This document shows, in pieces, positions 53,738 through 56,410 of a DNA stretch of 64,000 nucleotides. A model generated the notes under the pieces. It was not told the origin of the DNA. It did not search any database and saw nothing but the letters and a program-made list of their open reading frames with translations. Made by a program: the position numbers and the translations under genes. The stretch lies in the NCBI RefSeq assembly GCF_054482525.1, contig NZ_CM137006.1, one strand, 5' to 3'. Numbering within the stretch: position 1 is the first letter of the stretch; every line of letters starts with the position of its first letter.

Positions 53738-54772
53738 ATGGCTTACTCTGTTCAAAAGTCGCGCCTGGCAAAGGTTGCGGGTGTTTCGCTTGTTTTATTA
53801 CTCGCTGCCTGTAGTTCTGACTCACGCTATAAGCGTCAGGTCAGTGGTGATGAAGCCTACCTGGAAGCGGCACCGCTTGCGGAGCTTCATGCCCCGGCTG
53901 GAATGATTTTGCCGGTGACCTCCGGTGATTATGCAATCCCGGTGACCAACGGTAGTGGTGCTGTCGGTAAGGCGCTGGACATTCGTCCACCAGCCCAGCC
54001 GCTGGCACTGGTTTCTGGCGCGCGTACCCAGTTCACGGGCGATACCGCTTCATTGCTGGTGGAAAATGGTCGTGGCAATACTCTGTGGCCGCAGGTGGTT
54101 AGCGTGCTGCAGGCGAAAAACTACACCATCACCCAACGTGATGATGCTGGTCAGACACTGACCACCGATTGGGTACAATGGAACCGTCTGGACGAAGACG
54201 AGCAGTATCGTGGTCGTTATCAAATCTCTGTTAAGCCGCAGGGTTATCAGCAGGCGGTTACGGTTAAACTGCTGAACCTGGAACAGGCGGGCAAACCGGT
54301 TGCAGACGCGGCTTCCATGCAGCGTTACAGCACGGAGATGATGAACGTTATTTCCGCCGGTCTGGATAAATCTGCCACTGACGCCGCGAACGCTGCGCAA
54401 AATCGTGCCTCCACCACTATGGACGTACAAAGTGCAGCTGATGACACCGGTTTACCGATGCTGGTCGTACGCGGGCCGTTCAATGTGGTTTGGCAACGTC
54501 TGCCAGCGGCGCTGGAAAAAGTGGGCATGAAAGTGACCGACAGCACCCGTTCGCAGGGTAACATGGCCGTAACTTACAAGCCGCTGTCTGACAGCGACTG
54601 GCAGGAACTGGGCGCGAGCGATCCAGGCCTGGCATCCGGTGACTATAAACTGCAGGTTGGCGATTTAGATAACCGCAGCAGCCTACAGTTCATCGATCCG
54701 AAAGGTCATACTCTGACTCAGAGTCAGAACGACGCGCTGGTAGCTGTCTTCCAGGCTGCGTTTAGCAAGTAA
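53738..54772 (+). CDS. bamC: Outer-membrane assembly lipoprotein BamC
   Basis: 344 aa, LLAAC lipobox, synteny. Confidence 0.95.
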
Positions 54773-54779
54773 AAATACA

Positions 54780-54805
54780 GGGCTGGAGTCATCCGGCCCT
54801 TTTTT
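54780..54805 (+). terminator. bamC intrinsic terminator
   Basis: GGGCTGGAgtcaTCCGGCCCtttttt. Confidence 0.6.
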
Positions 54806-55520
54806 GTGCACAGAAAACCCCCAGCTAGGCTGGGGGTTCCGGAAAGCTTTCAGCTTTAAGCCAGTTATTAAAACCCCTTTTGATTTGTTAAAACACCTTG
54901 CGGTCTGGCAACTGCAAGTGTCAAACAAGAAATCAAAAGGGGGTCCCAATGGGGAACGAAAAGAGCTTAGCGCACACCCGATGGAACTGTAAATATCACA
55001 TAGTTTTTGCGCCAAAATACCGAAGACAGGTGTTCTACAGAGAGAAGCGTAGAGCAATAGGCAGTATTTTGAGAAAGCTGTGTGAGTGGAAAAGTGTACG
55101 GATTCTGGAAGCTGAATGCTGTGCAGATCATATCCATATGCTTGTGGAGATCCCGCCCAAAATGAGCGTATCCGGCTTTATGGGATATCTGAAAGGGAAA
55201 AGCAGTCTGATGCTTTACGAGCAGTTTGGTGATTTGAAATTCAAATACAGGAACAGGGAGTTCTGGTGCAGAGGGTACTACGTCGATACGGTGGGTAAGA
55301 ACACGGCGAAGATACAGGATTACATAAAGCACCAGCTTGAAGAGGATAAAATGGGAGAGCAGTTATCGATTCCCTATCCGGGCAGCCCGTTTACGGGCCG
55401 TAAGTAACGAAGTTGGATGCAAATGTCAGATCGTGTGCGCCTGTTAGGGCGCGGCTGGTAAGAGAGCCTTATAGGCGCATTTGAAAAACCTCCGGCTATG
55501 CCGGAGGATATTTATTCTGA
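54806..55520 (+). mobile_element. IS200-family insertion sequence (IS200/IS605 family), absent at this locus in K-12
   Basis: ~0.7 kb element with left-end hairpin CCCCCAGCtaggCTGGGGG, single tnpA, right-end hairpin CCTCCGGCtatgCCGGAGG; no terminal inverted repeats. Ends approximate to about 30 bp. Confidence 0.7.
54949..55407 (+). CDS. tnpA: IS200 transposase TnpA (HUH Y1 transposase), 152 aa
   Basis: MGNEKSLAHTRWNCKYHIVFAPKYRRQ...AECCADHIHMLVEIPPK is near-identical to recalled Salmonella IS200 TnpA. Confidence 0.9.
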   Translation: MGNEKSLAHTRWNCKYHIVFAPKYRRQVFYREKRRAIGSILRKLCEWKSVRILEAECCADHIHMLVEIPPKMSVSGFMGYLKGKSSLMLYEQFGDLKFKYRNREFWCRGYYVDTVGKNTAKIQDYIKHQLEEDKMGEQLSIPYPGSPFTGRK

Positions 55521-55526
55521 TATGAT

Positions 55527-55542
55527 ACGCAAACGTGTGCGT
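55527..55542 (+). promoter_or_regulatory. Candidate PurR operator of purC
   Basis: ACGCAAACGTGTGCGT, 15/16 match to the PurR palindrome, just right of the IS200 end. Confidence 0.45.
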
Positions 55543-55588
55543 CGGCAGGAAAACGCGATTTTAGCGGTAATTCGCACTAAATTTGTTT

Positions 55589-55632
<44 letters not shown>

Positions 55633-55696
55633 ACATCCGGCACACCAGACAGCAAAAGATTTTAAAAACGTTAATTCACACCCAGGAGTGATAAAG

Positions 55697-56410
55697 ATGC
55701 AAAAGCAAGCTGAGTTGTATCGTGGTAAAGCGAAAACCGTATACAGCACGGAAAACCCGGACCTGTTGGTGCTCGAATTCCGCAATGATACTTCAGCAGG
55801 GGATGGCGCGCGTATTGAGCAGTTTGATCGCAAAGGTATGGTGAACAACAAGTTCAACTACTTCATTATGAGCAAACTGGCTGAAGCAGGTATCCCGACT
55901 CAAATGGAGCGTCTGCTCTCCGATACCGAATGTCTGGTGAAAAAGCTGGATATGGTGCCGGTTGAGTGTGTCGTGCGTAACCGTGCTGCTGGCTCTCTGG
56001 TGAAACGTCTTGGAATCGAAGAAGGTATTGAGCTGAACCCGCCGCTGTTCGATCTGTTCCTGAAAAACGACGCCATGCACGATCCGATGGTCAACGAATC
56101 TTACTGCGAAACCTTTGGCTGGGTGAGCAAAGAGAACCTGGCGCGTATGAAAGAGCTGACCTACAAAGCGAACGACGTGCTGAAAAAACTGTTCGATGAT
56201 GCTGGTCTGATTTTGGTCGACTTTAAGCTGGAGTTTGGCCTGTACAAAGGTGAAGTGGTACTGGGCGATGAGTTCTCCCCGGACGGCAGCCGCTTGTGGG
56301 ACAAAGAAACGCTGGAGAAAATGGACAAAGACCGTTTCCGCCAGAGCCTCGGTGGCCTGATCGAGGCCTATGAAGCCGTCGCCCGCCGCCTGGGTGTACA
56401 GCTGGACTGA
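55697..56410 (+). CDS. purC: SAICAR synthetase
   Basis: Track ORF from 55583; K-12 start [16 protein letters not shown] at 55697 (237 aa). Confidence 0.95.

What the first reader, a model, noticed from the sequence alone, without database searches (positions are those of the whole stretch)
54780..55545. IS200-family element inserted between the bamC terminator and the purC operator/promoter region
A ~0.7 kb IS200-like element with an intact 152-aa TnpA occupies the bamC-purC spacer, which is IS-free in K-12. Its right end abuts the sequence resembling the purC PurR operator, so the native purC -35 region may be displaced or supplied by the IS end, with possible effects on purC expression.
Basis: partly seen in the sequence, partly recalled or inferred. 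Interest (0 to 1): 0.45.

Follow-up and report, generated by a model that had tools for sequence, protein, structure and literature searches.

The report
IS200C copy behind the bamC terminator
This is an ordinary, intact copy of the known E. coli insertion sequence IS200C, recently inserted at the end of the bamC terminator one base upstream of the likely purC promoter, whose core and PurR operator it leaves untouched.

Summary
The element is window 54806-55516: 711 bp, with no target duplication and no inverted ends.

It is IS200C of the IS200/IS605 family. It is 100% identical to copies elsewhere, and its 152-aa TnpA equals RefSeq WP_000526135.1. The left-end terminator hairpin, the STnc490/5'tnpA region and the right-end hairpin are all present.

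Three E. coli genomes have 17 kb of identical flanks and an empty site, which fixes the junctions and shows a recent gain. Nineteen other genomes, mostly porcine ETEC, carry a different IS200C haplotype at the same site. That points to an independent hit.

The right end lies 10 nt from the ChIP-verified PurR box. It is 1 nt from TGaTATGAT, which I infer to be an extended -10 for purC. The junction would then sit at -17/-16. The natural -35 position is just the bamC terminator stem. Core promoter and operator are intact, so a large effect on purC is unlikely; this is untested.

In passing: about 70 distinct IS200C left flanks all end in TT, with consensus TT(T/A)TT, and 87% follow a GC hairpin. 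IS200C homes to the 3' end of intrinsic terminators.

Verdict: known element, low interest.

The parts
53738..54772 (+). bamC coding sequence, the upstream neighbour
   Evidence: ORF list. RefSeq annotation of identical DNA as BamC WP_001297320.1.
54779..54805 (+). bamC intrinsic terminator and target of the insertion: hairpin 54779-54800 followed by a T6 tract at 54800-54805. It is left intact.
   Evidence: Terminator scan. ssDNA fold of -20.2 kcal/mol for this hairpin plus the left-end hairpin, z = -5.4. Identical sequence in the empty site of PCN033.
54806..55516 (+). Complete IS200C element, 711 bp (IS200/IS605 family, IS200 group), without inverted ends or target duplication
   Evidence: Flanks are contiguous in three genomes with 100% identical flanks. 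It is 711/711 identical to copies at other sites. RefSeq names the same DNA an 'IS200/IS605-like element IS200C'.
54816..54838 (+). Left-end hairpin AACCCCCAGC-TAG-GCTGGGGGTT. In Salmonella IS200 this is the bidirectional terminator that blocks incoming transcription. It is probably also the TnpA-recognised left-end hairpin. GAAAA precedes it at 54813-54817.
   Evidence: Fold. Ellis et al. 2015 (PMC4513863) place the terminator at nt 12-34 of IS200, against nt 11-33 here. IS1541C shows a compensatory C>T/G>A change in the stem.
54816..54939 (+). STnc490 / 5'tnpA structured region, including the stem-loop that sequesters the tnpA Shine-Dalgarno sequence. The art200 antisense RNA is described from the opposite strand of the tnpA 5'UTR.
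   Evidence: Rfam RF01405 at 146.1 bits, E = 2.9e-31, full length. Literature.
54949..55407 (+). tnpA, 152 aa. It is a Y1 HUH transposase with the HUH motif at H61-I62-H63 and a conserved Tyr at Y125.
   Evidence: Pfam PF01797 at 3.8e-38. It aligns over residues 5-133 with solved TnpA structures 2ec2, 2a6m (ISHp608) and 2xm3. The protein is identical to the tnpA products annotated WP_000526135.1.
55483..55516 (+). Right end: GAAAAA, then hairpin CCTCCGGC-TAT-GCCGGAGG (55489-55507), then the T-rich tail ATATTTATT ending the element
   Evidence: Fold at -10 kcal/mol, z = -5.0. Terminator-like on both strands. Invariant in IS200C and in IS1541A/C.
55518..55526 (+). Inferred purC extended -10 promoter element TGaTATGAT. 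It begins 2 nt after the IS end, with only C55517 between.
   Evidence: Highest -10 score in the spacer: 8.3, against 5.2 (window) and 5.0 (K-12-type empty site) for the next candidate. Conserved in genera that lack a -10 downstream of the box. RNA polymerase occupancy over the PurR site in a purR deletion is reported by PMC8282354. The TSS is not verified.
55527..55542 (+). PurR operator of purC, ACGCAAACGTGTGCGT
   Evidence: Reverse complement of the purC site ACGCACACGTTTGCGT listed by Cho et al. 2011. Conserved across Enterobacteriaceae.
55599..55643 (+). REP-like palindrome in the purC leader. It is not part of the IS.
   Evidence: Rfam naRNA4 at 38 bits, below its gathering score. Present in the K-12 empty site. 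Absent from Citrobacter and Enterobacter leaders.
55697..56410 (+). purC coding sequence, the downstream neighbour
   Evidence: ORF list. 100% protein identity to E. coli and E. albertii PurC.

Best explanation
Window 54806-55516 is a complete and probably still mobile copy of the known insertion sequence IS200C. It belongs to the IS200/IS605 family, IS200 group, and carries tnpA only.

It was gained recently in this strain's lineage. The family's mechanism is single-strand 'peel-and-paste' transposition, and I infer it here. The Y1 HUH transposase TnpA would excise the top strand as a circle. It would then paste the circle 3' of a short T-rich target on single-stranded DNA, without duplicating the target.

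Here the target was the last T of the bamC intrinsic terminator, on the strand that is the lagging-strand template. The element lies in the same orientation as bamC and purC.

The element insulates itself:
- its left-end hairpin terminates incoming transcription;
- a stem-loop and the art200 antisense RNA hold tnpA translation down;
- its right-end hairpin followed by a T-rich tail resembles a terminator.

The bamC terminator is preserved. On the purC side the junction lies 1 nt upstream of TGaTATGAT, the inferred extended -10 of purC, at about -17/-16. It is 10 nt upstream of the PurR operator. The core promoter and repression by PurR stay intact. Only DNA upstream of -16 changes, from a terminator stem with a T-tract to another hairpin with a T-rich tail. 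The most likely consequence for purC is little or none.

Shown: identity, boundaries, absence of a target duplication, the empty isogenic site, the target pattern and operator identity. Inferred: the single-strand mechanism, the purC promoter position and neutrality.
For: - Identity: Pfam Y1_Tnp at 3.8e-38. Alignment to solved TnpA structures, with HUH and Tyr conserved. Rfam STnc490 at 146 bits. RefSeq annotation as IS200C, with 100%-identical copies in many genomes.
- Boundaries and recency: PCN033, 19KM1776 and SCU-102 match 8.8 kb of left flank and 8.5 kb of right flank at 100% with adjacent coordinates, so their site is empty.
- Independent hits on the same site: the 19 genomes with the site filled have flanks and IS at only 99.2% identity and a T7 tract instead of T6. 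Their copy carries the haplotype A53G T290C C371G G485A, which is shared with copies at other sites. The window's copy is identical to copies at two further sites.
- Target: all 71 distinct left flanks from metagenome contigs end in TT, and -5 is T in 70 of 71. A strict GC hairpin lies within 12 nt in 62 of 71. For comparison, 0.26% of random positions have a hairpin plus T-tail, and 14-17% of TT[TA]TT pentamers in the window have a hairpin. None of 29 right flanks shows the pattern. A Y. pestis IS1541A copy and an E. coli plasmid IS200C copy show the same flank.
- Strand: GC skew of the + strand is mostly positive.
- purC: the operator is identical to the ChIP site. TGaTATGAT is the best -10 candidate and is conserved where no downstream -10 exists. 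RNA polymerase occupancy over the PurR site is reported.
Against: - The purC transcription start was not verified. Tiedeman et al. 1990 is not held, and two supplement searches found nothing.
- The strict sigma-70 scan of the tool found no promoter at all in the region. That is expected for a promoter without a -35, but it is not support.
- No expression data were available. Replacing DNA upstream of -16 can change promoter strength.
- Precise excision is part of this family's mechanism. An empty site in close relatives therefore does not strictly prove gain.
- The association with terminators could partly reflect survival of harmless insertions rather than targeting.
Confidence: 0.78

Rival explanations
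1. The insertion changes purC expression measurably. It replaces everything upstream of -16, including the T-tract at -17 to -22 and any upstream contacts of RNA polymerase. It also places two extra terminators and a structured IS end directly against the promoter. The result would be lower or higher basal purC transcription, or altered read-through from dapA-bamC.
For: The junction lies 1 nt from the TG of the inferred extended -10. Native and new upstream sequences differ: CCGGCCCTTTTTT against GGAGGATATTTATT. The left-end and right-end hairpins are terminator-like, so any read-through from bamC would be cut.
Against: Neither the native nor the new sequence has a -35-like hexamer at the correct spacing. 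The only TTGACA-like hexamer in the IS end, TTGAAA at 55481-55486, is 34 nt from the -10 (reading). Both upstream sequences are a GC hairpin followed by a T-rich run, so the local layout is regenerated. The same-site insertion persists in 19 sequenced isolates of another lineage, and purC is needed for purine prototrophy.
Confidence: 0.2
2. The real purC promoter lies downstream of the PurR box, with the box overlapping the -35 region as in most pur operons. The IS would then be 30 bp or more upstream of all promoter elements and irrelevant to purC.
For: Cho et al. 2011 state that PurR sites generally lie between -35 and -10. In Enterobacter, Leclercia and several other genera a good -10 (TGGCATAAT, TAGAAT, TAAAAT) lies just downstream of the same box.
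Against: In E. coli the homologous downstream position reads GGAAAA or GAAAAA, which lacks the essential T/A positions. The best downstream -10 scores at most 5.2, against 8.3 for TGaTATGAT. Every genus with the degenerate downstream site has TGATATGAT or TATAGT upstream of the box.
Confidence: 0.15
3. The insertion is old and shared with the porcine ETEC lineage. It would have been lost from most relatives by TnpA-mediated precise excision or by recombination, rather than gained twice.
For: IS divergence between the two same-site copies (4 of 711) is similar to flank divergence, about 0.8%. Precise excision is intrinsic to the family's mechanism (established knowledge, not tested here).
Against: About 5400 complete genomes have the site empty, including three with 17 kb of identical flanks. 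Each of the two copies belongs to a haplotype that also occurs at other sites. Other sites also carry different haplotypes, for example the site with left flank AACTGACTGGCTCTTTTT (L013 and L021 against L076). That fits recurrent targeting.
Confidence: 0.08
4. The terminator association of IS200C is a survivorship effect. The element would insert at any T-rich pentamer, and only copies behind terminators escape purifying selection.
For: Insertions behind terminators are the least harmful. A 2025-26 preprint interprets terminators upstream of IS elements as a persistence-promoting context.
Against: Only 17% of non-coding TT[TA]TT pentamers in the window have an upstream hairpin, against 87% of IS200C flanks. 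The insertion point sits at a fixed place, the 3' end of the T-tract, and in one orientation only. None of 29 right flanks shows the pattern. The element's own right end has the same hairpin-plus-TTATT layout.
Confidence: 0.15

Closest known systems
IS200C of Escherichia coli (the RefSeq annotation calls it an IS200/IS605-like element IS200C; TnpA WP_000526135.1)
   Same: The 711-bp DNA is 100% identical to annotated copies. The TnpA protein is identical. The ends are the same, and the same insertion site is annotated in 19 RefSeq genomes.
   Different: Nothing in the element itself. In this lineage the bamC-purC site is newly occupied, and by a different haplotype from the ETEC copies.
Salmonella IS200 (707 bp) with its art200/STnc490 antisense RNA and 5'tnpA RNA (Ellis et al. 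2015, PMC4513863; Ellis et al. 2017, PMC5435999)
   Same: [quoted passage not shown] The Rfam STnc490 model matches over its full length.
   Different: It is the E. coli variant: 711 bp against 707 bp. Expression of art200 or 5'tnpA from this copy was not tested. The Rfam hit is on the tnpA-sense strand.
IS1541A/C of Yersinia
   Same: About 87-88% DNA identity over the full length. The right end is invariant and the left-end hairpin is the same. A Y. pestis pFra copy also follows a hairpin with a T6 tract.
   Different: It is a different named element. IS1541C has A instead of G at the first base and a compensatory change in the left-end stem.
IS608 (Helicobacter pylori) and ISDra2, the mechanistic models of the IS200/IS605 family
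   Same: The TnpA is homologous (E about 1e-19 to 1e-16 against 2a6m and 2xm3). There are subterminal hairpins on one strand at both ends. There are no inverted ends and no target duplication. Insertion is 3' of a short specific sequence in one orientation.
   Different: IS200C has no tnpB. Its target is a T-rich pentamer, TT(T/A)TT, behind a GC hairpin, rather than TTAC or TTGAT. The proposed guide, GAAAA 5' of each hairpin, is my inference by analogy and is untested.
Class C bacterial group II introns, which insert after intrinsic terminators (Robart et al. 2007; recalled from memory, not checked here)
   Same: They home to the 3' side of intrinsic terminator hairpins, which is a harmless landing site.
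   Different: They are unrelated mechanistically: a retroelement ribozyme against a DNA transposon with an HUH enzyme.

Membership tests
IS200/IS605 family, IS200 group | Encodes a Y1 HUH transposase (Pfam Y1_Tnp) with the HUH motif and the catalytic tyrosine | tested here: met
   PF01797 at 130.7 bits against a cut-off of 23. Aligned with solved TnpA structures. H61-I62-H63 and Y125 are present in the translation.
IS200/IS605 family, IS200 group | tnpA only, with no tnpB or iscB | tested here: met
   The 711-bp element holds one ORF with a family match. The annotation lists only tnpA.
IS200/IS605 family, IS200 group | No terminal inverted repeats and no target-site duplication | tested here: met
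   Filled and isogenic empty sites differ by exactly the 711 bp. The ends GTGCACAG... and ...ATATTTATT are not inverted repeats.
IS200/IS605 family, IS200 group | Subterminal hairpins at both ends on the same strand | tested here: met
   ssDNA folds with z = -5.4 and -5.0. The two hairpins have similar sequences, each preceded by GAAAA(A). A compensatory change occurs in IS1541C.
IS200/IS605 family, IS200 group | Orientation-specific insertion 3' of a short conserved target sequence | tested here: met
   All 71 distinct left flanks end in TT, with consensus TT(T/A)TT. The right flanks show no pattern.
IS200/IS605 family, IS200 group | Transposition through a single-stranded circular intermediate, with preference for the lagging-strand template | not testable with these tools
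   Only consistent here: the top strand of the element is the strand with positive GC skew. bamC and purC are co-oriented with it.
IS200C (named element) | Near-identity of DNA and transposase to the reference element | tested here: met
   100% identity over 711 bp to copies annotated as IS200C. TnpA is identical to WP_000526135.1. The ISfinder reference itself was not available.
STnc490 / art200 - 5'tnpA RNA region (Rfam RF01405) | Match to the covariance model above the gathering score | tested here: met
   146.1 bits against 56, model positions 1-124 of 124. Transcription of either RNA from this copy was not tested.
PurR operator of the pur regulon | 16-bp PUR box bound by PurR in vivo at purC | tested here: met
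   The sequence is identical to the ChIP-chip site reported for purC. Binding in this strain was not tested.
Extended -10 sigma-70 promoter (proposed for purC) | TGn immediately upstream of a good -10 hexamer, with a transcription start 6-8 nt downstream and no need for a -35 | tested here: inconclusive
   The sequence criterion is met: TGaTATGAT is the best score in the spacer and is conserved. The transcription start is not available.

The most novel reading that the evidence does not exclude
IS200C, and IS200/IS1541 generally, may be an active terminator-homing element. Its TnpA would read an intrinsic terminator on single-stranded DNA as if it were the element's own right end: a GC hairpin followed by TT(T/A)TT. 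The A-rich GAAAA sequence 5' of each IS hairpin would pair with the T-tract, as the guide does in IS608. This would explain three things:
- why about 70 of about 70 independent copies sit exactly at the 3' end of a terminator T-tract, in the sense orientation;
- why the same terminators, bamC among them, are hit repeatedly by different haplotypes;
- why an element reputed to be immobile is polymorphic between genomes with identical flanks.

At this site the hit happens to land 1 nt from the purC extended -10. That gives a natural allele for testing whether DNA upstream of -16 matters at such a promoter. A 2025-26 preprint reports a statistical enrichment of terminators upstream of IS200/IS605 elements. 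In the papers I could search I found neither the precise insertion rule nor the right-end-mimicry or guide explanation. I could not check the older IS200/IS1541 literature or the family reviews.
Probability: 0.3. Interest if true: 0.5.

Novelty: already known. Interest (0 to 1): 0.2.

Why it matters
For the finding as given, very little. It is one more copy of a common E. coli insertion sequence. Full-length copies occur in 2063 of 5426 complete genomes. It sits in a harmless intergenic position, and the neighbouring terminator, promoter core and operator are intact.

It is useful as a lineage marker. The strain differs by this insertion from PCN033-like genomes that have identical flanks.

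It also adds to the evidence that IS200C has moved recently in E. coli. It provides a natural pair of alleles, filled and empty, for testing whether DNA upstream of -16 contributes at the purC promoter.

The wider pattern seen in passing would matter more if it is not already described. It would give a simple target rule for an element whose target choice is usually called undefined, and a safe-harbour logic parallel to that of class C group II introns.

Tried and rejected
- Experimental purC TSS: not obtained. Tiedeman et al. 1990 (PMC526926) is not held. Supplements of two transcriptome papers and of the PurR regulon paper gave nothing. Searches for 'purC promoter' and 'purCp' gave only irrelevant papers.
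- Built-in sigma-70 scan: it found no promoter in 54600-55800. It requires a -35, so it cannot see an extended -10 promoter. I scored -10 hexamers with approximate textbook frequencies instead.
- Hybrid promoter formed by the IS right end: rejected. The only -35-like hexamer, TTGAAA at 55481-55486, is 34 nt from the -10, and no hexamer at 16-18 nt resembles TTGACA.
- First MAFFT alignment with the K-12 empty site: it misplaced the left flank inside the IS. The junctions were set by eye and then confirmed with isogenic empty sites.
- Automatic up/down classification of purC -10 elements across genera: it was noisy, because terminator T-tracts score as weak -10s. The conclusion rests on reading the aligned sequences.
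- Literature on IS200 target choice: searches for IS200 or IS1541 with 'terminator' found only the internal left-end terminator and one preprint with a statistical enrichment. Prior description of the terminator rule can be neither shown nor excluded.
- Shared ancestry with the ETEC insertion: considered and judged unlikely.

Full report
**1. What is there**

bamC ends at 54772. Its intrinsic terminator follows: hairpin 54779-54800 and a T6 tract at 54800-54805. purC starts at 55697.

Between them lies a single 152-aa ORF, 54949-55407 on the + strand. It matches Pfam Y1_Tnp ('Transposase IS200 like') at E = 3.8e-38. It aligns over residues 5-133 with solved IS200/IS605-family TnpA structures, including ISHp608 and ISDra2. 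The HUH motif (H61-I62-H63) and the conserved C-terminal tyrosine (Y125) are present.

Upstream of the ORF, Rfam STnc490 matches over its full length at 146 bits, against a gathering score of 56. The left-end hairpin sequence occurs once in the window, against 0 expected.

**2. Exact boundaries**

RefSeq annotates the same DNA as an 'IS200/IS605-like element IS200C'.

Three complete genomes match the window at 100% on both sides: PCN033, 19KM1776 and SCU-102. The matches cover 8.8 kb on the left, ending at 54805, and 8.5 kb on the right, starting at 55517. The two matches are adjacent in those genomes. The PCN033 sequence reads ...CCGGCCCTTTTTT|CTGATATGATACGCAAACG....

The insertion is therefore exactly 54806-55516. 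It is 711 bp, with no duplication and no deletion. A 2-nt register ambiguity remains, because both the left flank and the element end in TT.

**3. Anatomy**

With nt 1 at 54806, the left-end hairpin AACCCCCAGC-TAG-GCTGGGGGTT occupies nt 11-33 (54816-54838). This agrees with the bidirectional terminator at nt 12-34 of Salmonella IS200. According to Ellis et al. 2015 (PMC4513863), it shields tnpA from incoming transcription. The same paper describes three further features:
- a weak tnpA promoter with a start near nt 40;
- the art200 (STnc490) antisense RNA.

The right end is GAAAAA, then CCTCCGGC-TAT-GCCGGAGG (55489-55507), then ATATTTATT. It is invariant in IS200C and in Yersinia IS1541A/C. The left and right hairpins resemble each other, and both are preceded by GAAAA(A). 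IS1541C carries a compensatory C>T/G>A change in the left stem.

**4. How common, and how recent**

Full-length IS200C is present in 2063 of 5426 complete E. coli genomes, with up to 35 places per genome. The bamC-purC site is filled in only 19 of them, nearly all porcine ETEC or O139:H1.

Those 19 copies differ from the window's. Identity is 99.2% over IS plus flanks, and the T-tract is T7 instead of T6. Inside the IS they carry A53G, T290C, C371G and G485A. That haplotype recurs at other sites (L029, L058, L070). The window's copy is 711/711 identical to copies at two other sites (L035, L069).

Taken with the isogenic empty sites, the simplest reading is two independent insertions into the same nucleotide position, the window's being recent. 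A metagenome flank with a third bamC allele also carries the insertion (L007). Loss by precise excision cannot be formally excluded.

**5. Target rule (beyond the finding)**

A scan of metagenome contigs with the first 35 nt of the element returned 98 stretches, which gave 71 distinct left flanks of at least 60 nt. A few of these are allelic versions of one site, so there are roughly 65-70 sites.
- All 71 end in TT. Position -5 is T in 70 of 71. The consensus is TT(T/A)TT.
- 62 of 71 have a perfect GC-rich hairpin ending within 12 nt. The remaining nine have imperfect or large-loop hairpins by eye.
- Controls: 0.26% of random positions have a hairpin plus T-rich tail. Only 14% of all TT[TA]TT pentamers in the window have such a hairpin, and 17% of the non-coding ones. 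None of 29 right flanks shows the pattern.

So IS200C sits at the 3' end of intrinsic-terminator T-tracts, in the orientation of the terminated gene. A Y. pestis IS1541A copy and an E. coli plasmid IS200C copy do the same.

The element's own right end has the same layout, a GC hairpin followed by ...TTATT. By analogy with IS608, the GAAAA 5' of each hairpin could pair with the T-rich cleavage sites. That analogy rests on my knowledge of Barabas et al. 2008, which I did not check here, and the idea is an inference.

[quoted passage not shown] The signal is strongest for IS200/IS605, and the authors read it as a persistence-promoting context. I found no statement of the precise rule in the searchable library. 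I could not read the older IS200/IS1541 literature.

**6. Relation to purC**

The PurR box ACGCAAACGTGTGCGT (55527-55542) is the reverse complement of the purC site in the ChIP-chip table of Cho et al. 2011. It begins 10 nt after the IS end.

I could not obtain the experimental transcription start. From sequence, the best -10 anywhere between bamC and purC is TGaTATGAT at 55518-55526, an extended -10. It scores 8.3, against 5.2 for the next candidate in the window and 5.0 in the K-12-type empty site.

Comparison of purC upstream regions from one genome per species gives further support.
- Escherichia, Citrobacter, Pseudocitrobacter and a few others share ...TTTTTTCTGATATGAT|box. Their sequence downstream of the box is degenerate (GGAAAA or GAAAAA).
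- Enterobacter, Leclercia and others lack the upstream element. They have TGGCATAAT, TAGAAT or TAAAAT just downstream of the box.

This reciprocal pattern supports the upstream -10 in E. coli, with a start near 55533 inside the operator. Freddolino and colleagues (PMC8282354) report RNA polymerase occupancy over the PurR site in a purR deletion, which is consistent.

On this model the IS junction is at -17/-16. The native -35 position is the terminator stem: AATCAT in K-12, AGTCAT in the isogenic empty site. After insertion it is ATGCCG/TGCCGG. Neither resembles TTGACA. The T-rich run from -17 to -22 changes from TTTTTT to TTTATT.

The TG, the -10 hexamer, the start region, the operator, the REP-containing leader and purC are all unchanged. 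The bamC terminator is also unchanged. The IS adds two terminator-like hairpins between bamC and purC.

**7. Verdict**

The regulatory hypothesis is partly supported in geometry: the -35 position is displaced. It is not supported in substance: no recognisable -35 is lost or supplied, and the core promoter and operator are intact.

The element is a known IS in a known family, and the same-site insertion is already annotated in public genomes. The finding is ordinary.

The by-products worth recording are:
- the recent, recurrent use of the bamC terminator as a target;
- the strict terminator-end target rule;
- the two alternative purC promoter layouts among Enterobacterales.

Noticed in passing
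Left flanks of IS200C copies in L004-L101, L002, L003 and window 54779-54805: Every one of 71 distinct left flanks ends in TT, with consensus TT(T/A)TT. 87% have a GC hairpin within 12 nt. IS200C therefore sits at the 3' end of intrinsic-terminator T-tracts in the sense orientation. Controls give 0.26% for random positions (hairpin plus T-rich tail) and 14-17% for T-rich pentamers (hairpin only).
   Followed up: yes
window 54806-55516 compared with L002 (K_EC180) and metagenome loci L029, L035, L058, L069 and L070: The same nucleotide position behind the bamC terminator is occupied by two different IS200C haplotypes in two E. coli lineages, and each haplotype also occurs at other sites. Other sites also carry more than one haplotype, for example the site with left flank AACTGACTGGCTCTTTTT (L013 and L021 against L076). 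This suggests recurrent independent hits.
   Followed up: partly
window 54813-54838 and 55483-55507; L183 and L184: The left-end and right-end hairpins are alike (CCYCCNGC-TAK-GCYGGRGG) and each is preceded by GAAAA(A). This is a candidate IS608-like guide for the T-rich cleavage sites. IS1541C has a compensatory change in the left-end stem.
   Followed up: partly
window 55518-55542; L102-L165, about 50-150 nt upstream of purC: Enterobacterales show two purC promoter layouts around a nearly invariant PurR box. Escherichia, Citrobacter and Pseudocitrobacter have a -10 upstream of the box (TGATATGAT). Enterobacter, Leclercia and others have a -10 just downstream (TGGCATAAT, TAGAAT or TAAAAT). 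Erwinia, Mixta and Rosenbergiella have TGGCATAAT a few nt upstream of the box.
   Followed up: partly
window 55599-55643: There is a REP-like palindrome inside the purC leader (Rfam naRNA4 at 38 bits, below threshold). The distance from the PurR box to the ATG is about 152 nt in Escherichia but about 50 nt in Citrobacter and Enterobacter, so the REP block is an Escherichia-specific addition to the leader.
   Followed up: no
window 54816-54939: The Rfam STnc490 match is on the tnpA-sense strand and includes the left-end terminator hairpin. Ellis et al. 2015 describe STnc490/art200 as antisense to the tnpA 5'UTR. The model seems to represent the sense-strand (5'tnpA) structure.
   Followed up: no
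Plasmid hits H84-H93 and H102-H110: Partial IS200C remnants recur on E. coli plasmids: nt 1-337 or 1-498 only on large plasmids from poultry and human isolates, and nt 571-711 only (92% identity) on roughly 93-kb plasmids from cattle and human isolates.
   Followed up: no
L185 (NZ_CP027133.1, 7756-8766): A 100%-identical IS200C copy lies next to a 'head processing protein' gene on a 97-kb linear record typed as a plasmid. This is probably a phage-plasmid, so phage-like replicons may carry the element between strains.
   Followed up: no
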